From the IMG/VR virus record IMGVR_UViG_3300022661_000054: a stretch of 64,000 nt of DNA. One strand, 5' to 3'. The stretch's first letter is position 1, and each line of letters opens with the position of its first letter. Of this stretch, positions 35,326 through 56,646 are shown one piece after another. The position numbers and the translations under genes were made by a program. The notes under the pieces are model-generated. The model saw only the letters and a list, made by a program, of their open reading frames with translations, had not been told where the DNA came from and made no database searches. This DNA is from a virus (taxonomy: Duplodnaviria > Heunggongvirae > Uroviricota > Caudoviricetes).

Positions 35326-35664
35326 TTACCAAATATACTCAATTTTAAGCCATTTATCTTCATTCTCAATAGGACAAAACAGTACTCCGGAACCGCTATC
35401 AGGATTAAACAAACTGTCATCTTGCTTCTCTAAGACGTAGCTACCATTCTCTTGTTTATCGCCTGCTGGCTCATTAACGATACTAAAAGAAACAACTTCG
35501 ATATATTCGAGGTTACAATAGCTGTCCTCTGATTTGACGGCTTCTTTAAGACTCCAAATCATCTCATCTCTTTCTCTGTCTATACTTGCCATTTGCTTCG
35601 AAAGAGCATCAATTGCTTTTACAGTATTAATGACATTTTTAGTGAGCATTTTTATCACCTTCAT
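35326..35664 (-). CDS. Hypothetical protein
   Basis: 112-aa coupled ORF. Confidence 0.6.
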   Translation of the reverse strand: MKVIKMLTKNVINTVKAIDALSKQMASIDRERDEMIWSLKEAVKSEDSYCNLEYIEVVSFSIVNEPAGDKQENGSYVLEKQDDSLFNPDSGSGVLFCPIENEDKWLKIEYIW

Positions 35665-36583
35665 GTAATATTTTTAAAGCGTCGTAAAATTTAATTTCTT
35701 TTAAATATGAAGCAGAAGTGAATTCAGCTTCATATTTATCTATAGTCTTCTGCTTCCAGTCTTTAAAGAAATGCAAAGTCATGTGATAACGAATAAGAGC
35801 AGCTACGGTAAGACTGTCTACGTCTTCTTCTTTTCCGTAGAAAAGAGAGATATAAGCACCGACATTTTCGTGGTTGTAATAATGAGCAAACTCAGAATCA
35901 TTTCCTTTAGAATCTTTGAATGCTTTACAAAAAGGCTTACCACAATCATGAAGCGCGGCAGCAATCTTAGTTTCAAGCTCAATAGCAGGCCCTAAATCTT
36001 TTTCTCTTGACTGTACATACTGAAGAGTTTTTAAACAGTGGTCACCGAGAGTTTCAGCATGCCATTTACTTTCCTGATTAAAATCGAAATGGTCAGTAAC
36101 AAAATGGCTCCAATCGCCATATTTGCTCATAGCTTCTGCATTTGCATAAGCAATTTCAATCATATTCCAACCTTCATTGTACCATGGGATATCAAAGCTC
36201 TTATACATACGTTCAAGTACATGGTAAGGCACCACACGAGATCGCTCCTGATTTCTTTGAACGCATAATTCAAAAGGAGTAGCCATAATAATACATCGCT
36301 TAAAACAATCTATATTAGTTAATTCTTGTAAAAATGCCTTACGACGCTTCCAACTGATATTAGTTGCATCATATACTACGTTCTTTCCGTCAGAAAGGTC
36401 TTCTTTTACGCGCTTGTGCAGGAGTTCAAACACCTGCTTATTAATATTTTGGTTATTTACATCGCCAGACAGTTCTTCTCTAATAGCATCGCTACTATGT
36501 ACGCTATAATTAGGATAATTACGTTCAATAAAAGTACTTTTACCACTTCCAGGTAAACCTACCATCATTACAAAAACAGACAT
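35639..36583 (-). CDS. Polynucleotide kinase (AAA_33 P-loop) fused to HD phosphohydrolase; RNA end-healing enzyme
   Basis: GLPGSGKST, SSDAIR, VVYDATN, RNQER; C-terminal H..TLGDH...ALHDCGKP...HENVGA...LHEGD. Confidence 0.85.
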   Translation of the reverse strand: MSVFVMMVGLPGSGKSTFIERNYPNYSVHSSDAIREELSGDVNNQNINKQVFELLHKRVKEDLSDGKNVVYDATNISWKRRKAFLQELTNIDCFKRCIIMATPFELCVQRNQERSRVVPYHVLERMYKSFDIPWYNEGWNMIEIAYANAEAMSKYGDWSHFVTDHFDFNQESKWHAETLGDHCLKTLQYVQSREKDLGPAIELETKIAAALHDCGKPFCKAFKDSKGNDSEFAHYYNHENVGAYISLFYGKEEDVDSLTVAALIRYHMTLHFFKDWKQKTIDKYEAEFTSASYLKEIKFYDALKILHEGDKNAH

Positions 36584-39291: not shown

Positions 39292-40083
39292 TTAATTATC
39301 GCCTCCAATAAAATTATCATCTAAAACTAGTACGTTAACTTCACCAGTATGTGCAGTACAGCGATCAATGCCGATGATTCCTTGAGATTCGTTAAAGTAC
39401 GGATCCCACTTGGCATCATCACCAAACTCTGATAGCTCACCTTGACTATCGCATAAATGACCTAAAGAACAATGCCAATGTCCGAATACGATTGTCTTAC
39501 CGGTTTTGTTCATACCGTCTTGTGCTTTCCAGAAAGGATTACCCCACATAGCTTCTTCCCACTCTACCTCGGAAGCATTACGCCAGTTCTCATTGTATTC
39601 GTAGTATTTTCCAACCTGGTGCCAAGGCTTACTAGCACCTTTATCATAATGAGTAATAGTAGGAATCCAACTATGAACAAAAATATACTTTTCAGTTTCA
39701 AAATAGTTTACAAGTAGGTCGCGATACGCTGCCGTTTTATTCAAAGCTGTATCACAGCACTTAGCAAAATCCGCCGGAAGAGGACTTCCACCGAGGTCTT
39801 GAACAGTTCTTACAGTGCCATTAGACTTATCGTGGCTATATGGAAAACATCTTGCGCAAAGATCGTCAAAAAGTAGGTCATGATTACCTTTTACTAGAAT
39901 CTTTCGCTCAAGCGACATTAAATAGTGCAACAATTCAATACTATTAGGACCCCTATCAAAGCAATCGCCGCACGAAATCAGCCAGTGTTCTTCGTTATTA
40001 GGGTCAAAACCTGCTCTGTCTAAAGCATTTTTAAGTGGTTCTAAGAAACTGTGAATATCAGAAACAACAAAAAGCTTAGGCAT
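39292..40083 (-). CDS. Calcineurin-like metallophosphoesterase
   Basis: SDIHS, GDCFDRG, GNHD, FVHS, FGHWH, IDRC. Confidence 0.9.
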   Translation of the reverse strand: MPKLFVVSDIHSFLEPLKNALDRAGFDPNNEEHWLISCGDCFDRGPNSIELLHYLMSLERKILVKGNHDLLFDDLCARCFPYSHDKSNGTVRTVQDLGGSPLPADFAKCCDTALNKTAAYRDLLVNYFETEKYIFVHSWIPTITHYDKGASKPWHQVGKYYEYNENWRNASEVEWEEAMWGNPFWKAQDGMNKTGKTIVFGHWHCSLGHLCDSQGELSEFGDDAKWDPYFNESQGIIGIDRCTAHTGEVNVLVLDDNFIGGDN

Positions 40084-40938
40084 TTATTTATCTCCTTCTG
40101 AGTAAACCCACCGTTCAATGTAGTATCTATCTTGAGTAAAAATGGGAATTTCTTTATCGATTACCCATTCACTTCTCATACAGCGAGTCTCTTCTTTTGT
40201 TTTAAAATCAATACAAATATCTTCTTTTTCTACACGATTACAGCAGACACCACGTTTAAACTCAGTAGGCATATCATTAAAATTGATACCTCTCTGAGTC
40301 ATTAACATATCTTGAATGTCATTGCAAGACTTACCGTGTAGTTCCTTATGAGAGAAGTTGCACTGACCAAGCATCTGAATTGCGTTGCGAGTAGCATCCT
40401 GCTGACGCCAGATGAAGCAGTTGGTAACTTCTTCTTTAGGAATGTTAAAACAGCGAGAATCAAACATTGCACCATTGTCAATAGCCTTCTTTAATGTATT
40501 AGCATATTTCTCAACATCTTCTTCCCAATAATGGTTTACCCATACATCAGACTGTAAATAATTATCAATTAATTCTCTAAGATACTTATTGAAAACCATT
40601 GTTGCCATGCTTGCTGACACGCTGCACATTTTCTGCACATTATAACCAAACCAAGCATCGGTATCAAGAGTGTCATAGTCTGTGAGAAGAAGAGTGATTT
40701 CGTCTGACTGTGTATAACCAAGCTTACAACCCTGGATATTCTCACAGAGATACTTCATAGTCGCATTCATAGTATTGTGGAAAATCTCGTCATAAGGCCT
40801 CTTAAGACCTTTAGTGAAGGTGTGGAAAGCTTTGCCGTCAAGTCTAATGATTACAGGAACTCGTCTAGGTAGATAATGTTTACTCCTATTTTCATAGAAT
40901 TCTTTCATTCTATCACCAAGTGCATCTTTAGTACTCAT
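40084..40938 (-). CDS. Thg1-like 3'-5' nucleotidyltransferase (tRNA-His guanylyltransferase family)
   Basis: IIRLDGKAFHTFTK...KPYD-like, GYTQSDEITL, FDSRCF, WRQQDATRN. Confidence 0.9.
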   Translation of the reverse strand: MSTKDALGDRMKEFYENRSKHYLPRRVPVIIRLDGKAFHTFTKGLKRPYDEIFHNTMNATMKYLCENIQGCKLGYTQSDEITLLLTDYDTLDTDAWFGYNVQKMCSVSASMATMVFNKYLRELIDNYLQSDVWVNHYWEEDVEKYANTLKKAIDNGAMFDSRCFNIPKEEVTNCFIWRQQDATRNAIQMLGQCNFSHKELHGKSCNDIQDMLMTQRGINFNDMPTEFKRGVCCNRVEKEDICIDFKTKEETRCMRSEWVIDKEIPIFTQDRYYIERWVYSEGDK

Positions 40939-41479
40939 ATTTTATACCTCCTGCTAGTATGCTTAATACAGTCTTAACTGCATAGTCATAACCTTCATTA
41001 TCGCCGTTAATTTCAAAATAATCAATACCAAGACCTTTATATAAATCTTTAATGCGGACACTTATACGATCACTTTCTTCTTCTGTCTGATTTCGGCCTT
41101 TAGGGTTGTAAGGTTTAACTCTGTTAATAAAGAAATTAATATTTTCATATGTATTATAAACATCCATGACTAACCTTGGATAAGACTCAGTTATTGCAGG
41201 ATTAGTATTATAAATAATACTAAGAGGAAGCGGGCTATCAGTCACAATCACATCGACATCATCTCGGCATCTACGTAATCTATAAGACTGTTTACCAAAC
41301 ACATATTCTTGACAACCTAGAGCCATAATATTATGCTCCCAGGTCTTATCTTTAGCAAATTCTGTTACAAGTTCTGCATTAACACCAGCTTTTTTAAGCT
41401 CTGCAAAAATAGTTGCTGCACCAGTGCTTTTTCCAGCACCTGGAGCTCCTGTTAAATTAACAACTAATGGTTTTTTCAT
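40928..41479 (-). CDS. P-loop kinase/ATPase (AAA_28/NadR-like)
   Basis: GAPGAGKST, VTEFAKD, VTDSPL, GRNQTEEES. Confidence 0.75.
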   Translation of the reverse strand: MKKPLVVNLTGAPGAGKSTGAATIFAELKKAGVNAELVTEFAKDKTWEHNIMALGCQEYVFGKQSYRLRRCRDDVDVIVTDSPLPLSIIYNTNPAITESYPRLVMDVYNTYENINFFINRVKPYNPKGRNQTEEESDRISVRIKDLYKGLGIDYFEINGDNEGYDYAVKTVLSILAGGIKYEY

Positions 41480-41644
41480 TTTAAATTCTCCCATACATAA
41501 TCGATAAAGATATTCCAATTCATCATTACTTGATCATAAACTTTTACTATAATATCATACAATAAAAAAAAGAAAGTTACTTATATCTAAGTAACTTTCT
41601 TAAAAAAAATCCTTGCAAAATAAACAAAGGAGGTACACCTTATA

Positions 41645-42290
41645 CATTCAAAGATAAATATAATACATTCCTAGGCCTTCGCCTTACCACTTGTTATATT
41701 CAAGTACATTCGGTCACATAGATGACAAGTCTGAGCTTCGGGGAGCGACCCCTAACTTCTTGCCACGAAATCTGGGTACTTGGTTAACGGCCAAGCCCTG
41801 GACTACATAAACTATGACAGGATTGATTACCTGCACCCCTCACCGTCTATTCAGAAAAAATTAATATCAGTATTCCTAATTATATACTAGCATTAATTCT
41901 TTGTTAATTGTCTTCGGCTACTAGGAGGTTACTTGAATCTCTTATACCCACATTTCTATGGTTCACGACAAATGAGATTATTGGCATTTCCAAGGTGTAA
42001 TACAGTCACCAACTAAACCCTAACTTGGATTCGGCTCAGCTATTAACCAAGCTTTCTATTACTCTCACGAGACTCTTCCTACCATTACTTGCTATAACAT
42101 CAGCACATACAACATATGTTTCGGGTCCTACCCTTAACTCATATACTCGCATATATAAGTAGCGCGGTTTCCGAGGTATCCCTCTTATGTTACCATCACA
42201 CATTGTTCAGCTTTCGCTTAGTTGCATTCTCAGCACAAGAAGCGTGTCTTGTGTTTAGCACTGAGTTAGTAATTATATTTATCTTTCAAG
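41645..42290 (-). ncRNA. Large structured ncRNA, ROOL-like (GOLLD not excluded)
   Basis: ~640-nt ORF-free region closed by a perfect 15-bp helix (41650-41664 with 42272-42286); own promoter at ~42310; many hairpins; 3' motifs GGGGUCGCUCCCC and CUCAGACUUGUC recalled from large phage ncRNAs; next to the tRNA array. Confidence 0.6.
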
Positions 42291-42673: not shown

Positions 42674-43345
42674 TTAATCTTTCAAGTATCTCCATATAAA
42701 GCCATAAGCAGTTTTTCGTTTACCTTTGCAAACCTCTAGAATGTGAGCTCTAATTGCGCCGCCTTTAGCATCAGAAATACCACTATCTCGAATCCACTGC
42801 TCAGCTTCATAAGAATTAGTAACACTATGAATTAAATTATTTTTTAAATCATAAATATTTATTGGTTTACTATAAAGCTCTTTTACTAAATCCGGGCTAG
42901 ACTTAACTTGAATATTAGCAGCTTTAGCAATATCGATAATTGTGTCTTTTGTGCACTTAAAAACTTCTGCAGCATCCTTAACACAATTATTATTACGTAA
43001 ATACTGAATAATCGCGCGTCTATCATAAAGCATCTTGCTTCCGCCACCCAAAGTAGCGTTATAACCAGGACCAAGCGGATCTTTACAAAAAGTATGAAAT
43101 TTCGTAATCCAATAAATTTCTCGGTCATTTAAAAGCTCTGGATCATCAGCTAGTTCTTCAACAACTTCTATAGTAAAAGCTGAATAACCATACTTTAACA
43201 TAGCTTTGTACAGAGGTCTTTTACTGTGACCAGTTCTAGCGCTGTCTTTTAAATGCTCTGCAAACCTTTTTTCTAATGAATAAAGTGTTTGACCTATGTA
43301 AGCCTTGCCATTAAGATTATTTGTAATTTTATAAATATAAGCCAT
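42674..43345 (-). CDS. Free-standing GIY-YIG homing endonuclease (Seg-like, NUMOD1-type C-terminus)
   Basis: MAYIYKITN...YIGQT...RFAEH...LNDREIYWI...GYNATLGG; C-terminal ILEVCKGKRKTAYGFIWRY. Confidence 0.9.
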   Translation of the reverse strand: MAYIYKITNNLNGKAYIGQTLYSLEKRFAEHLKDSARTGHSKRPLYKAMLKYGYSAFTIEVVEELADDPELLNDREIYWITKFHTFCKDPLGPGYNATLGGGSKMLYDRRAIIQYLRNNNCVKDAAEVFKCTKDTIIDIAKAANIQVKSSPDLVKELYSKPINIYDLKNNLIHSVTNSYEAEQWIRDSGISDAKGGAIRAHILEVCKGKRKTAYGFIWRYLKD

Positions 43346-43463
43346 AAGAATCACCTAGTTAGTAACTTAGTAGCAGCTGCATTACTAACTAGGTTACTTA
43401 TTTATTGGACAATTCAGTTTAATTAACAACTCACACCACGTGAAGGTATGTCCATTGTGAGTC

Positions 43464-43745: not shown

Positions 43746-43890
43746 TGGCGACTCCGATCGGGATCGAACCGACGACCTCCTGCGTGTGGAGCCTTATACT
43801 AGTCTTGCACTAGCATCTCTTTATAAGAGTGTTTTACTATTAAACTAATAAAGCACAGGCAGGCGTTCTAACCATCTGAACTACGGAGCC
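43746..43890 (-). tRNA. tRNA-Asp(GUC) interrupted in the anticodon by a nested tRNA-like element
   Basis: GGCTCCG/CGGAGTC G CCA; anticodon stem CCTGC/GCAGG; loop CTGT|C AC after removing 43787-43854. Confidence 0.8.
43787..43854 (-). ncRNA. Nested tRNA-like element (68 nt, CCA end)
   Basis: GCTTTAT/ATAAGGC T CCA acceptor; D-like GTTT..AAAC; stunted CTCTT-ATA-AAGAG; T arm GCTAG TGCAAGA CTAGT. Confidence 0.75.
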
Positions 43891-44427: not shown

Positions 44428-44987
44428 ATATATTTTATAATGTAGTTTATTCTCTTACCCTTTTATTTCACTACTTGCCTGCTTATCCACAGTAATATAA
44501 ATTACCTGATACGAGTTTCTCAAGGGTACAGGCTATAACTGATTTTATCGTTGTCTGCCAACTATCTTATTCCTTAATAAGCAAATTTGGGAGCATTTAT
44601 CGTTTGCCCAAACATTTTAGTCTTTACACCAAAATTCTATGTTTCAGATTACCACATTGTCAGCACAATGACCATTAAGGATTTTGTTAAGGGATATGTT
44701 CCCTTACTCGATGGACCAGGGTCTTTCAACCAGCCCTATCAAATAGGTGAACTCGCACAACAGTTCACAGTAGATATCACCACATAGACATCTTTACCTC
44801 ACATAGTTAACACTATGATTTTTGATAAAGCGGTAACCAGCCACACCCATGCTTCCTTCACTACTTAACTTCTGGTTTCATAGCTCGCATGTGCCCTTAC
44901 TATTTGATATTTGTGGGGCTTTATACCCACTCGTTTCTTAAAACGACAAGCACATAGTTATTCAACGGTAACTCTACGAAACCCACC

Positions 44988-47256: not shown

Positions 47257-47332
47257 TGGTGCGCCATCCGCGGCTCGAACGCGGGACCTAAGCATTAAAA
47301 GTGCTTTGCTCTTCCTACTGAGCTAATGGCGC
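47257..47332 (-). tRNA. tRNA-Lys(UUU)
   Basis: Loop CU-UUU-AA, CCA. Confidence 0.93.
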
Positions 47333-49256: not shown

Positions 49257-49637
49257 TATTTACTCCCTTCGATACATAAAGATATTAGAATTTTATTGAC
49301 TGTACTAATATTATACAGTACAAAACATCTTTATGTCGCAGCAGAGCATCAAGAATTTATTTAAGAATTTATTTTATAAAGAAAAAGATTTATGAGTAAC
49401 TCGTTCTGCAGTTGAGTCGACCCCTTGACTGACATAAATCAAATCAGGTTAGGCTTTTGTTTATGTAGTATCACATCTACTCTGGTCGGTCCAGATTAAG
49501 GGAAACCTTTATCTCTTTACCCTTCATAGAAACCAGTCATACGTTTAAGATTTGTGTGACTAACACCGTACGCTCCGATTACGTTAAGCTTCGATCCATT
49601 TGTGTGATTTTTAAATATCAGGAAGGATGTCCTTATG

Positions 49638-49710
49638 TTACGGTTGTAGGATTTGAACCTATACTTCCGACCAAAAGGCCGGCGTTCTATCCAATTAAAC
49701 TATCTCCGCA
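49638..49710 (-). pseudogene. Degenerate tRNA (undetermined)
   Basis: D arm GTT..AAC, T arm ATAGG TTCAAAT CCTAC, broken acceptor, anticodon hairpin CCGGCC-TTTT-GGTCGG. Confidence 0.45.
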
Positions 49711-50132: not shown

Positions 50133-50344
50133 ATAAAATTCACCGTGGACTACTTACATTGTTCACCAGATTACCAGTGTAGCATCCTTTAACAATACGT
50201 TTATCTTTTATCAATAAAGCACTACCAGTATCAATACAGGGGCACGGCTACTCTACTCCCTGGTGACGATTAGCTGATTCTCACGTCCAACGATATTCCC
50301 GCCCCAGTCCACCCAGTGGGAACTTATTAAAATACTATATAGCA

Positions 50345-50416
50345 CTACGCTTACGGACTCGAACCGTGTCTCCCAACAGATTAGGTCAGGTGTTTTACCA
50401 GTTAAACTATTACGCA
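50345..50416 (-). pseudogene. Degenerate tRNA (undetermined)
   Basis: D arm GTTT..AAAC and TTCGAGT T loop; acceptor and anticodon stems mispaired. Confidence 0.4.
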
Positions 50417-50614
50417 GATATTATCTAGTTCGTGCTATCCAAGACTTTTTACCACATTTAGGACATTTTGTTCTTCTATAGTCTTTCATTCGGAAAAACA
50501 CAAATTCATGAAAAGGAGCTTTCAAGATCCATTTCCAATAATTAGATTCCCATTCGTGATTACATTCTGGGCACTGTAACTTTACCTTCATAAAGTACCT
50601 CTAAATAAATAATT

Positions 50615-50941: not shown

Positions 50942-51093
50942 TGGTGACGCGTACGGGAATCGAACCCGTGATACCGCCGTTGGTGCTAGATGTCAGACTC
51001 GAACTGACACATAACCTCTATCTCTAGTGGCCTGCCTTACCTTTTGGCTAATCTAACGAAAGGGCGGTGTCTTAACCGCTTGACCAACGCGCC
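50942..51093 (-). tRNA. tRNA-Glu(UUC) interrupted after position 36 by a nested tRNA-like element
   Basis: GGCGCGT/ACGCGTC A CCA; stem CCGCC/GGCGG; loop CTTTC|AC after removing 50981-51057. Confidence 0.8.
50981..51057 (-). ncRNA. Nested tRNA-like element (77 nt, CCA end)
   Basis: GTTAGAT/ATCTAGC A CCA; D arm GCC-AAAAGGTAA-GGC; T arm GTCAG TTCGAGT CTGAC; degenerate anticodon arm. Confidence 0.8.
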
Positions 51094-51254: not shown

Positions 51255-51331
51255 TGGTGGACCATCTAGGACTCGAACCTAGGACCGACCGGTTATGAGC
51301 CGGGAGCTCTAACCAACTGAGCTAATGGTCC
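51255..51331 (-). tRNA. tRNA-Ile2(CAU, lysidine type)
   Basis: GGACCAT TA GCTCAGTTGGTTAGAGC..CTCATAACCG..GGTCC A CCA resembles Bacillota tRNA-Ile2. Confidence 0.85.
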
Positions 51332-51414
51332 ATAAACTAGTTTATGCACTTAAAACTAGCAAAACGGTCGTTTCTATTTAACCCATTCAACAGAAACTGA
51401 AAAACATAAAGGTC

Positions 51415-51553
51415 TGGTGCGGGATATCGGACTTGAACCGATACGGTATCACTACCGAGGGATTTTTGGTACTTGATGTAGGTACTGCCCCTACTAGATA
51501 GACACTATGTCATCAAGCAAGTCCCTTGCGTCTGCCTATTCCGCCAATCCCGC
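51415..51553 (-). tRNA. tRNA-Leu(UAA) interrupted between positions 34/35 by a nested mini-tRNA
   Basis: GCGGGAT/ATCCCGC A CCA, Leu-type D loop and long variable arm; stem AGGGA/TCCCT; loop CTT|AAAA after removing 51467-51518. Confidence 0.8.
51467..51518 (-). ncRNA. Nested mini-tRNA (52 nt, CCA end)
   Basis: GCTTGAT/ATCAAGT A CCA; hairpin GACA-TAG-TGTC; T-like arm GTAGG GGCAGTA CCTAC. Confidence 0.75.
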
Positions 51554-51561
51554 ATATAAAG

Positions 51562-51619
51562 GCCAAGCTAAATTCATTTAAAAGATGATCGCTATTCAGC
51601 AGAAATAAGCATTGGCTCT
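51562..51619 (-). ncRNA. Y-RNA-like small RNA, copy 1
   Basis: AGA GCCAA-U-GCU UAUUUCU ... AGC-UUGGC; own promoter at ~51630. Confidence 0.7.
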
Positions 51620-51842
51620 ATGCGTTATATTATACAATCTAATTACTTAAAATTTATAGTGTTTTAAAAAAATTTTAAAAATATTTTTTCCGCTAAAGGA
51701 CTCTCACCTTTAGGAGCAAGGGTTGGCTTCGCGTTTGCAACCACTTCCAACGGTCTTTCTTCTATCATTAACTCTTGTGACCAGCATCTAATTCGTTTAC
51801 CTTGCTTTTTCATATCTAAATACTTTTAAGAGTTTTTCTTTT

Positions 51843-51917
51843 TGGTCGGCAACATTCGGAATTGAACCGCCACCCAGCCCAACACTCGGCCGTGTTCTAC
51901 CATTAAACTATTATGCC
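51843..51917 (-). pseudogene. Degenerate tRNA (GUG in an 8-nt loop, His-like?)
   Basis: D arm GTT..AAC, TTCAATT T loop, CCA, mispaired acceptor. Confidence 0.45.
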
Positions 51918-52568
51918 TAAACTCTGCTACCTTTGGGTCACGCTGTACAGGCGTCCGTTTCCAAAGTTGTACGTTGTAGCGTATTCTAATATGGCTTTAT
52001 ACTCACTACGGAATAAATGATAATCTTTCCCACTGATTATCTGACAACTTATCTCTCATCATTAATTCCACGTTCTGTTACCAGATAGCTTATGGCTTTT
52101 ACCTGAGCGAGCTTCATTCTCTCGGCAGGCGAAGTTGTCCCTACTGTCCTTAATCATCCGCCAATAATAAAACGGAACGGCCTATGCTAGTTAATGGCCT
52201 GCGGGCGGTTCATCTATGAGGAAATGACCTTGTAATGACCCTTACGGAGCATCCAACTAATCATCTATTCCACAGTGCATCCTCATAGACATATCGGAGT
52301 TCAACCGAATTTATTTTTTTAAGTTTTTTATCAATCTCATAAGCATTACTTATCTCATTGAAAGGTTTTCAACACTTACAAACCAATTTAAGGCTGTTCA
52401 TCACACTCCATTTACCACTGCTGCTTCTTCGCTAGAGTTAGGCGTTGACCTTAAATCACAGCCTAAACCAACGCTTCGTGGCACCTAACGTATTTTATTA
52501 TACAATGTGTTCTTTATAAATTTAGCACTTATTAAATTAATAATTTAATAAATTATTAAAAATATTTG

Positions 52569-52682
52569 GACTAGCTAAAAGGTGCTCTACCGCTGAGCTA
52601 CATTTCACCTAACAGATGAAATGGTTGGATTCGAACCAACGACCACCCGCTTAAAAGGCGTTAAGAAATAAGCATAGTCTCT
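52569..52682 (-). ncRNA. Y-RNA-like RNA, copy 2, enclosing a circularly permuted tRNA-Lys(UUU)-like domain (YrlA-like)
   Basis: GACUA-U-GCU/AGC-UAGUC stem; order anticodon hairpin - T arm - loop-closed acceptor stem - D arm. Confidence 0.8.
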
Positions 52683-52706
52683 ATAAATATATTACAATAA
52701 AATATA

Positions 52707-54704
52707 TTAATTATTAACAAAAGCTACTAATTTTTCTAATTCATAACTTCTGATAATGGTCTGCTTTACAGGGTCGATATCATCAGAGTCTTCAGAAATG
52801 ACTGGAGCATAAGTATCATCAAATACAACGTTTGCATCCATAGGATTATCCGCAAGCTCGCCACGACACTCGGCAATCATACCAATATTAACGTCAAGAT
52901 AATTAGCCTGTAAGTATTTTTCGATAGTCTTAAAACCTTCAGGTCTAATTACTCTATCATCACTGTCAAGAATCTGATTAAGAATGACTACTTCTCGATT
53001 CTGAATGTCAATAGCAAAAGCTACGCAAGCACGAGAATCACCATAAACCTTAAACTGCATCTCAATGTTCTTAGGATCCCAAGCTTTAGTATTAAGATTT
53101 TCTTTATTCTGGTAACCAGCATAAATCTCACCACTGTTAAGTTCACTGCAGTAACCATGGAAAGTCTGAACTACATACTTATAACCTTTTTTGGCAAGAG
53201 AGTCGAGGTTAATATCAAAGTACTCTGCACCATTAGGACCAGTAATATCACCGGAGAACAGGATATCATTTCCAAAAGATTTTGCACCATAATTGAACCA
53301 GCCCATAGTAGACAAATTATCATCTTTATCTACAACGATAAGAGAAGAATCAATATCAAAAGCTTTCTTCCAATGTACAAAAGTTCTAATATTATTTCCA
53401 GTACAAGGTATACGGCTTCCAATAGGAAGTACATCAATACCCTTACCGCTAGCAGAAGTATTAGTAGGCATACCTAACTTATAGAAATTATCAGCTACAT
53501 AAATCTTACCAAGAGAAGGCAAAGACTTGTAATATTCTTTAATCTTATCAAGACAAACAGAAGCAAGGAACTTACGTGTATTTTCGTTAAGTCTAGACTT
53601 TCGCCATTTAGCTTCATAGTCAGTTTCCTTGTGAGTTTTTACTTTATTATTATGGAAGTAAGTAAAGGTTCTTGCTTCAGTATCATCTGCTGAAAGAGTT
53701 GCAAGAAGCTGATAAAGAACTACAGGATTAGATGCAGGAATCATATTAAGAATTTCAACAGCTTCCTGAGGATTTGCTCTTGAAAGAAGCATCTTAATGC
53801 GACGTTCTAACATAGAACCATTAGAAGCATAAATATCAGCCGCAGCAACAATATCACCATCGGAAAGCATTTTAAGAGCCGCTCTATCAGGGGACTGCAC
53901 ATTAGTTTCTTTGGGTAATTTTAGGTTGCCAAGAGAAACGATTTTATTAAAATACTTTGCCTGTTTCTTAGACATAGGACAATGTTTTACATAAGGAATA
54001 TAAGAAGCAATTTCACTGAAATGCATCTGTAATTCTTTCCAAGCATAAGGATTCTTTTTGCAATTCTTGAATTGTGCTTTATCTCCAAATCTTTGAACAG
54101 AAAGCTTTACAATATCTTTTTTATCTAAGAATCTAGCAAATCTTTTATCTGTAGGAAGGAGCGCAAAAACATTGTCTTTACACTTAATTTCCTCTGACCC
54201 ATCATAAAAACCATTAGTAAACAAAGTAAGAAATTCAGCTAATTCATCACACGAAAACGGACGAGTGTAAGCACAATAAGCATCCGTAATATCGTATAGA
54301 GTTTTACGAGCTTCTTCATTATTTATAATATAGAAGGTTCTAAGTTTAAGCTCATCACCTACAACATATTCAGGAAGATCTTTCTTAAAAATTTCAATTC
54401 TACCAAGGTCCGAGCCATATGCAAAATAAGAAACAATCTGCTCAATCAAAAGCTCTTCACAAGTAAAATATTTAGTATCCTGAGGATTCTCATAAAAAGA
54501 CTTAGGAACATTCAAATGAAATTCCTCGTCAATCTGATTAACCATAGTCTTAGTAAGAAAACTAGGCTTATCTACAATAATACCGAAATTAGCTAACAAA
54601 TATGCGTTTAAATAAGCTGAATTATTTGTAGCCAAATCACTATCATCAATAACTAAATAATGACGAGTTCTTAAAATAGACTTCAAAGTTTCGTTAATTT
54701 GCAT
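52707..54704 (-). CDS. Helical N-terminal domain + C-terminal TerD-like domain; candidate Ro60/TROVE-related RNA-binding protein
   Basis: C-terminal VHWKKAFDIDSS, FSGDIT..GAEYFDINL TerD-like motifs; long helical N-terminus with PKSFYENP; flanked by five Y-like RNAs. Confidence 0.55.
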   Translation of the reverse strand: MQINETLKSILRTRHYLVIDDSDLATNNSAYLNAYLLANFGIIVDKPSFLTKTMVNQIDEEFHLNVPKSFYENPQDTKYFTCEELLIEQIVSYFAYGSDLGRIEIFKKDLPEYVVGDELKLRTFYIINNEEARKTLYDITDAYCAYTRPFSCDELAEFLTLFTNGFYDGSEEIKCKDNVFALLPTDKRFARFLDKKDIVKLSVQRFGDKAQFKNCKKNPYAWKELQMHFSEIASYIPYVKHCPMSKKQAKYFNKIVSLGNLKLPKETNVQSPDRAALKMLSDGDIVAAADIYASNGSMLERRIKMLLSRANPQEAVEILNMIPASNPVVLYQLLATLSADDTEARTFTYFHNNKVKTHKETDYEAKWRKSRLNENTRKFLASVCLDKIKEYYKSLPSLGKIYVADNFYKLGMPTNTSASGKGIDVLPIGSRIPCTGNNIRTFVHWKKAFDIDSSLIVVDKDDNLSTMGWFNYGAKSFGNDILFSGDITGPNGAEYFDINLDSLAKKGYKYVVQTFHGYCSELNSGEIYAGYQNKENLNTKAWDPKNIEMQFKVYGDSRACVAFAIDIQNREVVILNQILDSDDRVIRPEGFKTIEKYLQANYLDVNIGMIAECRGELADNPMDANVVFDDTYAPVISEDSDDIDPVKQTIIRSYELEKLVAFVNN

Positions 54705-54761
54705 AATACTATTCTCCTTAATTTTTATTATTATTTAAATTAAAACGAGCACAATATTTAG

Positions 54762-54813
54762 AACTGACTAAATAATTTTCCCATAAAATTGTTTAGAAAT
54801 AAGTACAGTTTCT
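54762..54813 (-). ncRNA. Y-RNA-like small RNA, copy 3
   Basis: AGA AACUG-U-ACU UAUUUCU ... AGU-CAGUU, enclosed by a 10-bp outer stem 54745-54754/54821-54830. Confidence 0.65.
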
Positions 54814-54838
54814 TTAAATGTTGTGCTCGTACATTTTG

Positions 54839-54896
54839 GTCTAGCTTCTGTTAATCAAAAATATATGGCTTGATAGTAAGAAATAAGCATAGACTC
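54839..54896 (-). ncRNA. Y-RNA-like small RNA, copy 4
   Basis: GA GUCUA-U-GCUU AUUUCU ... AAGC-UAGAC. Confidence 0.7.
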
Positions 54897-54910
54897 AATA
54901 AATAATAAAG

Positions 54911-54972
54911 GCCAAACTACACTACTTTTATGTATCCTGTTATACCAGCATTAAGAAATAAGTATTGGCTCT
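54911..54972 (-). ncRNA. Y-RNA-like small RNA, copy 5
   Basis: AGA GCCAA-U-ACU UAUUUCU ... AGU-UUGGC; promoter TGTATAAT at ~54990. Confidence 0.7.
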
Positions 54973-55152
54973 AAATTAATTACATCATATTATACAGTAT
55001 TAAGTTTTAAATTTTGCACAACAATAACTAAAAAATTTTGCTGTGCAAATAAAAAATATATTATAAATATATTATAATAATTAATTATATTATTATATAT
55101 AATATACTTTTATTATTTTTTAATTTATTATACGATAAATTTTTCAGTTATT

Positions 55153-55524
55153 TTATTCATTTATGATAAATTTTGTTCTTTCTATTAAAGTTCTAACTTC
55201 TTCTGCATCATCAAAGTCATCAACAACTTCCAAGGTGCCGCCTCGTTGAAGTTTAACAGTATAATAATATACTCCTGGTGTTAAAGCTCTGGTATCATTT
55301 GGCTCTATTTTAATAGAAATTTTGCCTGTTTCTGGATTTTGATCATCTAAACTGTAACCTTTTAAAACAATAGCCTCTTCAAATCTTTGATTTGGATATA
55401 ATAAAGCAAAGTATACAGCCTCATTAGTACCTAATAAGTGCTTTACAGTTGAATTATTTTCTGTTATATCTATATTAAATATGTAAGAATCGCCACGATT
55501 TAGTTTAATTATTTTAGTTGACAT
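55153..55524 (-). CDS. Small structural protein (BppU-N-like)
   Basis: IKLNRGDS...IKIEPNDT..L.PGVYYYTVKL; preceded by GCTAAATTA. Confidence 0.55.
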   Translation of the reverse strand: MSTKIIKLNRGDSYIFNIDITENNSTVKHLLGTNEAVYFALLYPNQRFEEAIVLKGYSLDDQNPETGKISIKIEPNDTRALTPGVYYYTVKLQRGGTLEVVDDFDDAEEVRTLIERTKFIINE

Positions 55525-55626: not shown

Positions 55627-56646
55627 TTAACTATTGTACACAATCCATATATCCCCTTCAGTACCATCAGAATCTGTTGGGGCAGCCGTTCTAAAATAAA
55701 TAGAATTTGTACGATCAGTTTTATAAGTAGATCGATAATAATTATAATGAATAGGCTTACCTTCCGTATCCGATACTGCTTTTGTAGCAAGGTCTGCTAA
55801 TTCAGTGTTAGGAACCTTTGTAGAACCTTTTAGAATGTTATCAAGGTCTGTTATAATATTTGGCACTTTTGTTCTATTTAATTCAGTTACTATAGGCTGT
55901 ATTGCATCAAGACGAGCAAGTAAACCTTCAGAAGAGTTATTAATTGAGTCATTAATTTCTTCAATTTTTCCATCTAAGTTATCGAGTTCTTCTGCTAATT
56001 TCACAATTTCCGCATAATCATAACTCTCTGACTCATTTAATTCATTAACTATATGTGTAGCATTAGTTGCTAATTTTAAAGGTTCTGTCTCGTCATAAGT
56101 ACCAAAATAAATATTTCCAGTACCACTGCTTATATATAAGTAAGTAGAAAATTTTTTATTTACTTTATTATAAGCTGAAAACTTTTTTAAGTTGTTTTCG
56201 TTACCGGTAATTATACTTATACTATGAATTTTATTAAAAGCACTTTGCGGTATATCAGTAGCTGCGCTTAAATTAGAGCCATCCCAGCTGTAAGAAATAG
56301 AAGTTTTTGCTAATTCTTCTACCGCGCCATCGACAACTTTATTTTTAATATCATACCAATTCAAAACCGACTTTTGATCTGTAACAGTGTCGCCTATATT
56401 AGGAACTGTTATTCTACCCTTAAAACTACCTCCACCTGCTGGAACAACTTTTAAACTTTGATTAGAAGAGCCATCAAATTCTATTGAACTTTCCTCACCG
56501 GTAAGATTGACTTTTGTAAGAGTTAACTTAGATGTTAACTTATTAGCTGTATGAGCTAGCTCTGCCTCAACAGCATTTATATTAAAGGTTTCTTCAGTAC
56601 CAGTAGAATTTTCAATTACAATAGTATTTTTTAATTCTTTTGCCAT
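55627..56646 (-). CDS. Tail-fibre-associated protein
   Basis: GEESSIEFDGSSN motif and C-terminal APTDSDGTEGDIWIVY. Confidence 0.55.
   Translation of the reverse strand: MAKELKNTIVIENSTGTEETFNINAVEAELAHTANKLTSKLTLTKVNLTGEESSIEFDGSSNQSLKVVPAGGGSFKGRITVPNIGDTVTDQKSVLNWYDIKNKVVDGAVEELAKTSISYSWDGSNLSAATDIPQSAFNKIHSISIITGNENNLKKFSAYNKVNKKFSTYLYISSGTGNIYFGTYDETEPLKLATNATHIVNELNESESYDYAEIVKLAEELDNLDGKIEEINDSINNSSEGLLARLDAIQPIVTELNRTKVPNIITDLDNILKGSTKVPNTELADLATKAVSDTEGKPIHYNYYRSTYKTDRTNSIYFRTAAPTDSDGTEGDIWIVYNS

What the first reader, a model, noticed from the sequence alone, without database searches (positions are those of the whole stretch)
52569..52682. Circularly permuted tRNA-Lys(UUU) with intact anticodon loop embedded in a Y-like stem
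Minus-strand order is Y stem 5' - CGC CUUUUAA GCG GGU - GGUC - GUUGG UUCGAAU CCAAC (T arm) - CAUUUCA-UCUGUUAGG-UGAAAUG (acceptor stem closed by a loop) - UA GCUC AGCGGUA GAGC (D arm) - ACC - Y stem 3'. The 3' ACC pairs with the 5' GGU, rebuilding a full stem ACC|CGC-CUUUUAA-GCGGGU. The T-acceptor-D order matches YrlA-type bacterial Y RNAs, which as I recall lack an anticodon arm. This one keeps a Lys UUU loop. tRNA-Lys(UUU) is the established target of PrrC. Inference: a non-chargeable decoy or tether for anticodon nucleases and repair enzymes, or the precursor of a permuted tRNA.
Basis: partly seen in the sequence, partly recalled or inferred. Interest (0 to 1): 0.85.

Follow-up and report, generated by a model that had tools for sequence, protein, structure and literature searches.

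The report
Phage tRNA-mimic RNA with split anticodon arm
A large gut phage encodes a roughly 115-base RNA that is a whole tRNA with its ends rewired: the acceptor end is sealed and the anticodon arm is rebuilt from two pieces. The design recurs with compensating changes in about 60 related phage RNAs, so it is a real tRNA decoy or adapter rather than a decoding tRNA, but its Lys-like UUU triplet is not conserved.

Summary
On the minus strand, 52568-52682 holds a bulged closing stem, a 3-bp hairpin with loop CUUUUAA, two closing pairs (GG:CC), UGGUC, a T arm, an acceptor helix sealed by a loop, and a D arm. This is a complete tRNA cloverleaf permuted at positions 28|29.

The hairpin and both closing pairs covary in 34 IMG/VR relatives and in 8 syntenic orthologues (96-100% paired; 0 of 500 shuffles reach this).

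The RNA is of the YrlA kind but fails membership:
- It scores 39 bits against Rfam's cut-off of 69.
- It lacks the GNCGAA Rsr-binding motif.
- I found no TROVE gene in the window.

It is one of five RNAs that share a covarying "handle" around a 665-aa helical + TerD-fold gene. That pairing holds down to 50% protein identity.

The loop keeps anticodon-loop form (7 nt, U33, A37, A38). The triplet varies: UUU in the closest orthologues, and GUU, UGU, UCU and GGU elsewhere.

Chen et al. 2014 noted a "V" stem-loop upstream of T and read it as a variable arm. It is probably this same hairpin.

A permuted-tRNA precursor is unlikely. The decoy or tether function is plausible but untested.

The scan has found phage Y-like RNAs with permuted tRNAs before on other DNA. 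The split anticodon-arm reading and the TerD-type neighbour are the new parts.

The parts
52568..52682 (-). Whole small RNA, about 115 nt: handle plus a circularly permuted tRNA-like domain
   Evidence: Sequence read. The covariance model R1, built from 34 relatives, scores it at 90 bits and finds only this copy in the window. Rfam YrlA gives 39 bits, below the cut-off of 69.
52671..52679 (-). Handle 5' strand, GACUA-U-GCU (5 bp, a bulged U, then 3 bp), preceded by a conserved AGA
   Evidence: It pairs with 52569-52576. The helix is 100% paired in 8 orthologues, and 3 of its 8 pairs change on both sides. Of 64 strict 5' motifs in 14 loci, 63 have a fully complementary 3' partner, against 3.9% for shuffled controls.
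52569..52576 (-). Handle 3' strand, AGC-UAGUC, followed by C and an A/U-rich tail
52661..52670 (-). Conserved single-stranded linker UAUUUCUUAA. It contains the YUAY-type motif UUAU.
   Evidence: GCUUAUUUCU is invariant in the 8 orthologues and in all four sibling handle RNAs. TROVE-linked relatives have UUACUUC at the same place. Chen 2014 describes a conserved YUAY that begins the 'V loop' (PMC4201824).
52648..52660 (-). Anticodon-arm look-alike hairpin, CGC-CUUUUAA-GCG (tRNA positions 29-41). The UUU triplet lies at 52653-52655.
   Evidence: It is 96% paired with 4-5 pair types per pair in 34 relatives. RNAalifold recovers it.
52646..52647 (-). Closing strand GG (tRNA positions 42-43), directly abutting the hairpin
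   Evidence: It pairs with CC at 52581-52582. Pair 28:42 is CG 22, AU 7, GC 5 and 100% paired. Pair 27:43 is GC 6, UA 2 in the orthologues.
52581..52583 (-). A26 and CC (tRNA positions 27-28), the 3' end of the tRNA-like core. The nick lies after position 28.
52641..52645 (-). Variable-loop equivalent UGGUC (positions 44-48, with C48 available for the Levitt pair with G15)
   Evidence: Columns 24-28 of A1 are nearly invariant: G26 and C28 in 34/34, U27 in 33/34.
52624..52640 (-). T arm, GUUGG-UUCGAAU-CCAAC
   Evidence: Three of the five stem pairs covary.
52601..52623 (-). Acceptor-stem equivalent, sealed by a cap: CAUUUCA-UCUGUUAGG-UGAAAUG. It folds as a 10-bp helix with a GUU triloop.
   Evidence: Searches give the fold. 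Six of the seven pairs covary in 34 relatives.
52584..52598 (-). D arm, GCUC-AGCGGUA-GAGC, with G18 and G19, preceded by U8 and A9
   Evidence: The stem is invariant in the relatives, partly because of the search pattern used.
52689..52696 (-). Possible extended -10 box, TGTAATAT, a few bases upstream of the AGA-GACUA start
   Evidence: This is read from the sequence only. Sibling RNAs are preceded by TGTATAATAT, and orthologues by TATTAT or TATATA boxes. The consensus scan did not list it. It is an inference.
54911..54972 (-). Sibling handle RNA 1 (GCCAA.../...UUGGC), without a tRNA-like insert
54839..54896 (-). Sibling handle RNA 2 (GUCUA.../...UAGAC)
54762..54813 (-). Sibling handle RNA 3 (AACUG.../...CAGUU)
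51562..51619 (-). Sibling handle RNA 5 (GCCAA.../...UUGGC)
52707..54704 (-). 665-aa gene that ends 25 nt upstream of the RNA. It is the candidate protein partner: helical N-terminal region plus a TerD-fold domain (residues 435-597).
   Evidence: No Pfam family matches. More than 600 metagenomic homologues exist. The AF2 model has pLDDT 74.8. The TerD fold scores Z 14.2 against 2qz7_B and E 1e-4 against 2kxt. AFDB clusters of 'TerD domain-containing' proteins match at E 1e-21. The handle RNAs flank its homologues in all 10 distinct loci checked.

Best explanation
This is an independently transcribed phage small RNA of about 115 nt. It is a non-decoding tRNA mimic of the YrlA (Y RNA-like) kind.

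Architecture:
- A bulged 8-bp 'handle' helix plus a conserved single-stranded UAUUUCU box forms the base.
- The apical domain is a complete tRNA whose ends have been moved.
- The acceptor end is sealed.
- The chain enters and leaves between anticodon-stem positions 28 and 29.
- No nucleotide separates the 3-bp hairpin from the 2-bp closing helix, so the two should stack coaxially into a normal-length (5 bp + 7 nt) anticodon arm. The handle branches off sideways at the nick.

Most likely mechanism (inferred):
- The handle is the binding site for the protein encoded next door, a helical + TerD-fold protein that four simpler handle RNAs also flank.
- The tRNA-shaped head, including an anticodon-loop look-alike, serves as bait or adapter for a factor that recognises whole tRNAs.
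- Candidate factors are an anticodon-arm nuclease of the host, or a tRNA repair or modification enzyme.

What is shown and what is not:
- Shown: the fold, its conservation, the family, and the gene linkage.
- Inferred: transcription, protein binding, and the bait or adapter role.
For: Structure:
- The sequence shows the layout directly.
- Covariation supports every helix, including the hairpin and both closing pairs.
- All tRNA tertiary-pair nucleotides are present: U8, A14, G15/C48, G18G19, the UUCGAAU T loop and G46.
- The total arm length (3+2 bp) and the 7-nt loop are constant in 34 relatives.
- U33, A37 and A38 are kept while positions 34-35 vary. That is the pattern of real anticodon loops.

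Family:
- R1 finds about 60 members in IMG/VR, metagenomes and GenBank phages.
- 16 of 33 first-round loci carry a TROVE + vWA_Ro60 gene about 150 nt away. This ties the design to bona fide Ro60/Y-RNA loci.

Partner:
- In this clade the RNA sits 25-200 nt downstream of the 665-aa gene's homologues, from 80% down to 49% identity.
- The handle motif has a complementary partner in 63 of 64 cases, with 21 different N5 sequences.

Context:
- The window holds a tRNA array, a ROOL RNA, a Thg1-like gene, a metallophosphoesterase and an AAA_33+HD kinase/phosphatase-type gene.
- In the literature, phage tRNAs counter anticodon-arm nucleases, and AriB targets Lys(UUU), Thr(UGU) and Asn(GUU) (bioRxiv 10.1101/2025.02.04.636281).
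- Hughes et al. proposed YrlA as a competitive inhibitor of an anticodon nuclease (PMC7790460).
Against: - There are no expression, processing or binding data.
- Thermodynamic folding of the single sequence prefers another hairpin, and the z-score is weak.
- The tRNA-like RNA is missing downstream of the gene in two related loci, L120/L121 and L124. It is therefore dispensable for the protein-RNA set.
- The protein shows no similarity to Ro60 by profile comparison, so the Y-RNA analogy rests on gene order only.
- The triplet varies even between close orthologues. That fits neutral drift as well as changing targets.
- My first search pattern fixed the T-loop and D-arm sequences, so triplet frequencies are biased.
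Confidence: 0.6

Rival explanations
1. Structural strut only. The hairpin is the 'V' stem-loop of YrlA-type RNAs. On this reading it helps the three-way junction fold or contacts the partner protein. Its likeness to an anticodon loop is inherited from the ancestral tRNA gene and is kept because a 7-nt U-turn loop is a stable module. Nothing reads it as an anticodon arm.
For: Chen et al. 2014 describe a less-conserved fourth stem-loop upstream of T and read it as a variable arm (PMC4201824, section 6). The triplet is not conserved. In the same loci, other tRNA-like handle RNAs have a continuous 5-bp anticodon stem opened in the loop, with no hairpin at all (L132:2901-3014, L132:3028-3137, L138:7671-7783). 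A mimic therefore works without it.
Against: The hairpin lies outside the four-way junction, before the 42-43 strand, so it cannot occupy the variable-arm position. Stem length 3+2 and loop length 7 are fixed, and U33, A37 and A38 are conserved while the stems have turned over completely. That is more constraint than a mere strut needs.
Confidence: 0.25
2. Precursor of a working permuted tRNA-Lys(UUU). RNase P and a 3' nuclease would open the acceptor cap and CCA would be added. The handle would be cut away and positions 28 and 29 joined by an RNA ligase, giving a normal decoding tRNA.
For: Joined in silico, the two halves give a canonical 75-nt cloverleaf that ARAGORN calls tRNA-Lys(ttt). M. 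smegmatis YrlA is cut by RNase P and receives CCA (PMC4201824). The same phage has tRNA genes with long inserts that must need cutting and joining (Rfam tRNA hits of 136-149 nt). A few relatives encode GCCA or ACCA right after the acceptor 3' strand (L007, L091, L143:970).
Against: Here the acceptor helix runs on for 10 bp and is capped by 3 nt, with U at position 73 and no CCA. Many relatives cap the stem with UUCG- or GAAA-type loops, or with as few as 2 nt. The phage already has a normal tRNA-Lys(UUU) at 47257-47332. No bacterial enzyme is known to excise a helix from the 5' strand of an anticodon stem (established knowledge). The ARAGORN call is uninformative, because 31 of 34 controls with shuffled hairpin letters are also called tRNA.
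Confidence: 0.07
3. Debris of two tandem tRNA genes: the 3' part of one and the 5' part of the next, with no function.
For: The T-acceptor-D order is what adjacent tRNA genes give, and the element lies next to a large tRNA array.
Against: The two acceptor strands are complementary to each other. The break falls at exactly 28|29 in every member. All helices covary across loci with 49-80% identical neighbours, and the flanking handle is conserved.
Confidence: 0.02

Closest known systems
YrlA (Y RNA-like A; Rfam RF02553; Chen et al. 2014 PMC4201824; Salmonella YrlA structure, Wang et al. 2018 bioRxiv 10.1101/312249)
   Same: The order is the same: 5' stem, then T arm, closed acceptor-like stem-loop, D arm, then 3' stem. 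The tRNA tertiary-pair nucleotides are kept. A YUAY-type motif (UUAU) lies between the basal stem and the tRNA-like core. A stem-loop sits upstream of T ('V' in Chen 2014). Close relatives of the design lie next to TROVE/Ro60 genes in phages.
   Different: It scores 39 bits against the 69-bit cut-off. It has no GNCGAAN0-1G Rsr-binding motif. No TROVE gene was found in the window. The solved Salmonella YrlA has a continuous, kinked anticodon-like stem and 'lacks the anticodon loop'. Here the stem is nicked at 28|29, and a 7-nt anticodon-type loop is retained and conserved in form.
Phage Y-like 'handle' RNAs next to Ro60-like proteins, noted earlier in this scan on other genomes (e1-272486, e1-1839869, e1-4036950)
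   Same: Several small RNAs share one closing stem, one of them carries a permuted tRNA, and they cluster around one protein gene inside or beside a tRNA array.
   Different: Those handles carry an ACAGCAA box (seen here in L007, L025, L036 and others), and their neighbour is Ro60-like. Here the box is UAUUUCU and the neighbour has a TerD-fold C-terminal domain.
Circularly permuted tRNA genes of red and green algae, and split tRNAs of Nanoarchaeum (established knowledge, from memory)
   Same: The 3' half is encoded upstream of the 5' half. A helix formed by the flanks brings the two ends together.
   Different: Those are processed at a bulge-helix-bulge motif by the splicing endonuclease and become decoding tRNAs with free CCA ends. 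Here the acceptor end is sealed by continuous pairing, and no such enzyme is known in bacteria or their phages.
Phage-encoded tRNAs that resist or bypass anticodon-arm nucleases, such as the T5 tRNA-Lys/Thr/Asn variants against PARIS AriB (PMC11464382; bioRxiv 10.1101/2025.02.04.636281)
   Same: Both are phage-borne, sit with a tRNA array, and present an anticodon arm. The commonest triplets in my first sample (GUU, UUU, UGU) are the three AriB targets.
   Different: Those are functional, chargeable tRNAs that replace cleaved host tRNAs. This RNA cannot be charged, so it could only bind, titrate or report, not replace.

Membership tests
YrlA (Rfam RF02553) | Reaches the family's curated gathering score (69 bits) | tested here: not met
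   It scores 39 bits with E 2.9e-7 in a 401-nt scan, and the model's 7-bp lower stem is unmatched. It is not listed in the gathering-threshold scan of the window. TROVE-adjacent relatives also score only 44-53 bits.
YrlA (Rfam RF02553) | tRNA-like domain in the order T arm, closed acceptor stem-loop, D arm, with conserved tertiary-pair nucleotides | tested here: met
YrlA (Rfam RF02553) | GNCGAAN0-1G motif near the 5' end, the presumed Rsr/Ro60 contact (Chen 2014) | tested here: not met
   The 5' part reads AGAGACUAUGCUUAUUUCUUAA and has no such motif. TROVE-linked relatives such as L026 do have GCCGAAG.
YrlA (Rfam RF02553) | Encoded next to a Ro60/Rsr (TROVE) gene | tested here: not met
   An HMM built from 12 phage Rsr proteins finds nothing in the six frames of the window. 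Pfam finds nothing on the neighbour. hhalign of the neighbour family against Rsr gives probability 0.5%. The rest of the ~220-kb genome is not held, so a distant rsr gene cannot be excluded.
YrlA (Rfam RF02553) | No anticodon loop; anticodon-like stem continuous with the Y stem (Salmonella structure) | tested here: not met
   A 7-nt loop on a nicked 5-bp stem is present and conserved.
Functional tRNA / permuted tRNA gene | Recognised as a tRNA gene by tRNA finders | tested here: not met
   ARAGORN finds none in 51300-55200. Rfam tRNA gives 20.4 bits against a cut-off of 29, and only across the 3' half.
Functional tRNA / permuted tRNA gene | Acceptor end that can be freed: a 7-bp stem, a discriminator, then CCA or a processing site | tested here: not met
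   The helix continues to 10 bp with a 3-nt cap, has U at position 73 and has no CCA.
Functional tRNA / permuted tRNA gene | Processing and joining of the permuted ends (circular intermediate) | not testable with these tools
   This needs RNA from infected cells.
Ro60/TROVE protein (for the 665-aa neighbour) | TROVE HEAT-repeat ring plus vWA domain | tested here: inconclusive
   Sequence profiles show no similarity. The C-terminal domain is TerD-fold rather than vWA. The helical N-terminal part gave only weak alpha-repeat matches at Z about 6 and was not folded on its own.

The most novel reading that the evidence does not exclude
Phages carry a family of ribonucleoprotein decoys or sensors. 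Each RNA would display a full tRNA body with a nicked, exchangeable anticodon arm, with triplets UUU, GUU, UGU, UCU, GGU, GAA and others, and often two or three different ones per genome. It would be held by a handle-binding protein that can be Ro60 or, as here, an unrelated helical-TerD protein. The particles would intercept or report host nucleases that cut anticodon arms, so the triplet would track the host's nuclease specificity.
Probability: 0.2. Interest if true: 0.85.

Novelty: new variant of a known kind. Interest (0 to 1): 0.6.

Why it matters
Bacterial Y RNAs are described as tRNA mimics without an anticodon loop, and what their tRNA-like head binds is still unknown. This window and about 60 relatives show a widespread phage version in which the whole anticodon arm is rebuilt from two pieces and kept in anticodon-loop form.

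That gives a concrete, testable handle on the open question. One can ask whether anticodon-arm nucleases, t6A or wobble modification enzymes, or repair enzymes act on it.

It also shows that current tools miss these RNAs:
- The Rfam YrlA model scores them below threshold, even next to TROVE genes.
- In Gordonia phage Neville such an RNA lies under two annotated 'hypothetical protein' genes.

Finally, the same RNA design is paired here with a non-Ro60 protein. If the binding is confirmed, the Ro/Y-RNA principle would extend to a second protein family.

Tried and rejected
- blastn of the locus against 50,697 GenBank phages gave no match.
- No whole genome is held for the window, so I could not look for rsr, RtcB or anticodon-nuclease genes elsewhere in the phage.
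- The search for related loci with the 665-aa protein in IMG/VR found nothing. Yet tblastn on loci fetched by RNA pattern later found ~50% identical homologues, so that first negative was a sensitivity limit.
I therefore did not survey chromosomal YrlA loci of bacteria for the hairpin.
- Single-sequence folding gives a weak z-score and an alternative hairpin, so it is not usable as support.
- ARAGORN calls the re-permuted sequences tRNA in 34 of 34 cases. It does the same for 31 of 34 controls with a shuffled hairpin, so I rejected this as evidence for the hairpin.
- Foldseek and VIA searches with the full-length model of the neighbour list TerD and generic alpha-repeat proteins, and no Ro60 chain among the rows shown. 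The Atlas search of residues 1-430 gives only unnamed or TerD-family clusters.
- A loosened handle regex produced mostly noise. I replaced it with the strict motif test.
- Burroughs & Aravind 2016, Sim & Wolin 2018 and Sim et al. 2020 are not held, so I cannot say whether they discuss this hairpin.
- The promoter/terminator scan lists no site that explains the ends of the RNA.
Full report
**What is there.** The window is part of a large phage genome. Earlier notes of this scan put it at about 220 kb, from gut Clostridia-type bacteria; I did not test that. On the minus strand it carries a 10-kb RNA island:
- a ROOL RNA (41653-42289, 286 bits);
- about 20 tRNA genes;
- a DUF3800-XI RNA.

The flagged element lies just beyond the array, 25 nt downstream of a 665-aa ORF (52707-54704, minus). 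Read 5' to 3' on the minus strand, it is:
- AGA, then GACUA-U-GCU;
- UAUUUCUUAA;
- CGC-CUUUUAA-GCG;
- GG, then UGGUC;
- GUUGG-UUCGAAU-CCAAC;
- CAUUUCA-UCUGUUAGG-UGAAAUG;
- UA, then GCUC-AGCGGUA-GAGC;
- A, CC, UUUU;
- AGC-UAGUC, then C and an A/U-rich tail.

In tRNA numbering the chain starts at position 29. It runs through the anticodon loop (C32 U33 U34 U35 U36 A37 A38), the 3' strand of the anticodon stem (39-43), the variable loop, the T arm and the acceptor 3' strand. It then crosses a cap to the acceptor 5' strand, continues through the D arm and A26, and ends at position 28. The anticodon stem is therefore CC|CGC paired with GCGGG: the normal five pairs, with a nick between 28 and 29. 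The 8-bp bulged closing helix branches off at that nick.

**Is it more than chance?** The single sequence does not prove it. ViennaRNA prefers a different 5-bp hairpin (CGCCU/GGGUG, -32.7 kcal/mol) to the tRNA-like layout (-28.0), and the z-score against shuffles is -1.68. The evidence is comparative.

First, a pattern for the T loop and D arm with 18-40 nt between them found 119 IMG/VR stretches.
- In 33 of these, plus the window, the two acceptor strands pair with each other rather than with outside partners.
- All 34 have, with no length variation, a 3-nt / 7-nt / 3-nt hairpin, two more nucleotides and a (U/G)GGUC variable loop in front of the T arm.
- In a MAFFT alignment (A1) the three hairpin pairs are 96% paired, with four to five pair types each.
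- The pair equivalent to 28:42 is paired in 34 of 34 (CG 22, AU 7, GC 5).
- None of 500 column shuffles reaches the observed covariation. Sliding the partners by 1-3 columns drops pairing from 98% to 28-43%.

Second, for eight syntenic orthologues of the window's own clade, RNAalifold independently predicts the handle, hairpin, T, acceptor and D helices. With the two closing pairs added, 98.3% of cells pair, 17 pairs show changes on both sides, and 27:43 also covaries (GC 6, UA 2).

A covariance model built from A1 (R1) scores the window element at 90 bits and finds no second copy in the window.

**The loop.** Across A1 the loop is always 7 nt. Position 32 is C, A or U; U33 occurs in 30/34; position 36 is U in 27/34; A37 occurs in 30/34; A38 occurs in 34/34. 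Positions 34 and 35 vary.

The triplets are GUU (11), UUU (5), UGU (5), GUC (2), and one each of CUU, AUU, UAU, UCU, CGU, GCU, UUG, CUG, UGG, UCG and UUC.

In the window's own clade:
- The closest orthologues keep CUUUUAA while the stem turns over (CGC/GCG, GGC/GCC, AGC/GCC, UGC/GCC). These are the window, L122, L123, L125, L135 and L172.
- L126 and L132 have CUGUUAA.
- L143 has CUUGUAA.
- Metagenomic members add CUUCUAA, CUGGUAA, CUUAUAA, UUGUUAA and CUGAAAA.

The form of an anticodon loop is conserved; the identity of the 'anticodon' is not. Because my first pattern fixed the T-loop and D-arm sequences, the triplet frequencies are not an unbiased census.

**What family is it?** Rfam's YrlA model matches at 39 bits (E 2.9e-7 locally). 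That is well below the curated 69 bits, and the model's lower stem is unmatched.

Of the 33 IMG/VR loci, 16 have a TROVE + vWA_Ro60 protein (Pfam E 1e-39 to 1e-41) about 150 nt from the element. The split-arm design therefore occurs in genuine Ro60/Y-RNA loci. Even these score only 44-53 bits with RF02553.

In GenBank, Gordonia phage Neville has such an element just upstream of its 'Ro-like RNA binding protein'. It carries UCC-AUGCUAA-GGA-CG, scores 58 bits with R1 and 44 bits with YrlA, and overlaps two annotated small hypothetical genes. Streptomyces phage pSt2308 has related ones.

The literature bears on this in two ways.
- Wang et al. 2018 state that YrlA 'lacks the anticodon loop' and has a kinked continuous anticodon-like stem (bioRxiv 10.1101/312249).
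- Chen et al. [quoted passage not shown] They also note that a conserved YUAY begins the V loop (PMC4201824, section 6).

The UUAU/UUAC in the linker of my family fits that YUAY, so their V stem-loop is very probably this hairpin. I could not see their figures.

What the present data add is the following. Two covarying pairs close the four-way junction after the hairpin, which puts the hairpin outside the junction. It is contiguous with strand 42-43 and has exactly anticodon-arm dimensions. That is not where or how a variable arm sits.

**The surroundings in this phage.** The element fails three YrlA criteria:
- the score;
- the GNCGAAN0-1G Rsr-binding motif, which is absent from AGAGACUAUGCUUAUUUC;
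- a TROVE neighbour.

An HMM from 12 phage Rsr proteins finds nothing in the window. Pfam finds nothing on the 665-aa neighbour. A profile-profile comparison of the neighbour's family with Rsr gives nothing.

The handle is (A)GA-[N5]-U-[RCU]-UAUUUCU ... [AGY]-[N5']-C. The copies lie at 54911-54972, 54839-54896, 54762-54813, 52568-52682 and 51562-51619. Only the flagged one has a tRNA-like insert.

With a strict 5' motif, 63 of 64 occurrences in 14 loci have a fully complementary partner within 200 nt. Shuffled N5 controls manage 3.9%. There are 21 different N5 sequences.

The 665-aa protein has more than 600 metagenomic homologues and no annotation. Its AlphaFold model (pLDDT 74.8) has three parts:
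- a TerD-fold domain at 435-597 (VIA Z 14.2, rmsd 2.6 A over 145 residues with 2qz7_B; Foldseek E 1e-4 with 2kxt);
- an alpha-repeat stretch at 271-395 (weak, Z about 6);
- an N-terminal region shared with 'TerD family' proteins of viruses and bacteria.

Whether the helical part resembles the Ro60 ring is undecided.

The gene order is conserved.
- Three short handle RNAs lie upstream of the gene in every locus of 69-80% identity examined (L120-L126).
- The tRNA-like RNA lies directly downstream in L122, L123, L125, L126 and L172.
- It also lies downstream in loci whose protein is only 49-54% identical (L132, L135, L138, L184, L190, L223).
- It is absent in L120/L121 and L124.

Some of the distant loci carry two or three tRNA-like handle RNAs. 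Some of these are 'type b': a continuous 5-bp anticodon stem opened in the loop, with no hairpin.

**How it most likely works.**

Shown:
- a conserved fold that reproduces every part of a tRNA, including a normal-length anticodon arm;
- a sealed acceptor end;
- a covarying handle shared with four sibling RNAs;
- tight linkage to one protein gene.

Inferred:
- Each RNA is its own transcript. -10-like boxes lie a few bases upstream and U/A-rich tails downstream, from reading only.
- The handle and its UAUUUCU box bind the neighbouring protein, as Y RNAs bind Ro60.
- The tRNA-shaped head recruits or occupies something that recognises tRNAs.

The head cannot be aminoacylated, so it can only bind, compete or be cut.

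The setting points to conflict over tRNAs. The phage has a tRNA array with insert-bearing tRNAs, a Thg1-like enzyme, a metallophosphoesterase and an AAA_33+HD protein nearby.

Two published findings fit. Phage tRNAs neutralise anticodon-arm nucleases, and PARIS AriB cuts Lys(UUU), Thr(UGU) and Asn(GUU) at 40|41 after reading U36-A-A-U39 (bioRxiv 10.1101/2025.02.04.636281; PMC11464382). Hughes et al. suggested that YrlA might competitively inhibit an anticodon nuclease (PMC7790460).

The three AriB targets are the three commonest triplets in my first sample. This is only a lead, for three reasons: the sample is biased, these are also typical ANN-box tRNAs, and the window's own hairpin has G39 rather than U39.

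I put 0.6 on the statement as a whole ('non-decoding tRNA-mimic RNA of a ribonucleoprotein, whose anticodon-arm look-alike is read by a tRNA-recognising factor'). Within that, I put about 0.9 on the fold and kind, about 0.5 on the TerD-type protein as partner, and about 0.3 on a nuclease decoy specifically.

**Rivals.**
1. The hairpin is only a strut or protein contact, with inherited loop features (0.25). The triplet drift and the hairpin-less type b siblings favour this. The fixed 5 bp + 7 nt geometry and the conserved U33/A37/A38 count against it.
2. It is a precursor of a real permuted tRNA-Lys (0.07). When joined, the halves make a canonical cloverleaf, and M. smegmatis YrlA is an RNase P and CCA-adding substrate (PMC4201824). 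Against it:
   - the acceptor helix here is a continuous 10-bp hairpin without discriminator or CCA;
   - relatives use UUCG- or GAAA-type caps or 2-nt caps;
   - the phage already has a normal tRNA-Lys(UUU);
   - the ARAGORN result is uninformative, because shuffled-hairpin controls also pass.
3. It is tandem-tRNA debris (0.02). The covariation excludes this.

**Novelty and verdict.** The kind is known: tRNA-mimicking Y-like RNA, including in phages. This scan has already reported phage handle RNAs with permuted tRNAs next to Ro60-like genes on other DNA (e1-272486, e1-1839869, e1-4036950).

Three things appear not to be in the papers I could read:
- the reading of the upstream stem-loop as a nicked, full-size anticodon arm, supported by covariation of the two closing pairs;
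- its conservation in form with a variable triplet;
- the pairing of this RNA design with a helical-TerD protein instead of Ro60.

I class it as a new variant of a known kind, with interest 0.6.

Noticed in passing
window 43749-43890, 50945-51093, 51418-51553 (minus): Rfam tRNA matches span 136-149 nt, with full model coverage, and ARAGORN does not call them. They are tRNA genes interrupted by long inserts. Earlier notes on this window (e1-5428028 and following) read the inserts as nested tRNA-like elements.
   Followed up: partly
window 51620-52420 (minus): An ORF-poor stretch of about 800 nt lies between the flagged RNA and the fifth handle RNA. A TGTATAAT box sits near 52500. The stretch is 67-80% identical in syntenic loci L122, L124 and L125, and in parts of L126 and L172. 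It has no Rfam match even at E 0.01. It is a candidate large non-coding RNA.
   Followed up: partly
window 41653-42289 (minus) and 44691-44737 (minus): A full-length ROOL RNA (286 bits) lies at the downstream end of the tRNA array, and a DUF3800-XI RNA motif (40 bits) lies inside it.
   Followed up: no
window 35639-36583, 39292-40083, 40084-40938, 40928-41518 (minus): A gene set suggestive of RNA-end repair lies right after the RNA island: an AAA_33 kinase + HD phosphohydrolase, a calcineurin-like phosphoesterase, a Thg1-like 3'-5' nucleotidyltransferase and an AAA_28 protein. I found no RNA ligase among the ORFs scanned.
   Followed up: partly
window 49637-49710 and 50344-50417 (minus): ARAGORN reports a tRNA with a two-base anticodon ('tt') and a tRNA-Ile with the unusual anticodon AAU.
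   Followed up: no
window 42674-43354 (minus): A GIY-YIG homing-endonuclease-type gene sits inside the tRNA array. A related SegE/NUMOD3-type ORF lies beside the tRNA-like RNAs of several IMG/VR loci (L053:3019-3846).
   Followed up: no
L162:1052-1151 (Gordonia phage Neville, NC_060131.1 about 56352-56451): A split-anticodon-arm tRNA mimic lies upstream of the Ro-like gene gp91. It coincides with the annotated small genes gp89 and gp90, which are therefore probably not protein-coding.
   Followed up: partly
L132:2735-3137, L138:7671-7956, L183:4418-6099: Single phage contigs carry two or three tRNA-like handle RNAs in a row, with different loops or with the anticodon stem opened in the loop ('type b'). 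This suggests a repertoire rather than one RNA.
   Followed up: partly
L007:10337-11860, L113:234-1739, L095:11634-13067: ORFs next to the 'CAGCAA...AUCCUG' class of tRNA-like RNAs give weak hits (E 1e-8 to 1e-10) to my phage Rsr HMM. This fits earlier notes that this class partners a very divergent Ro60-like protein.
   Followed up: no
window 23372-25603 (minus): The phage encodes a full-length pyruvate formate-lyase-like glycyl radical enzyme (Pfam PFL-like, E 1e-206).
   Followed up: no
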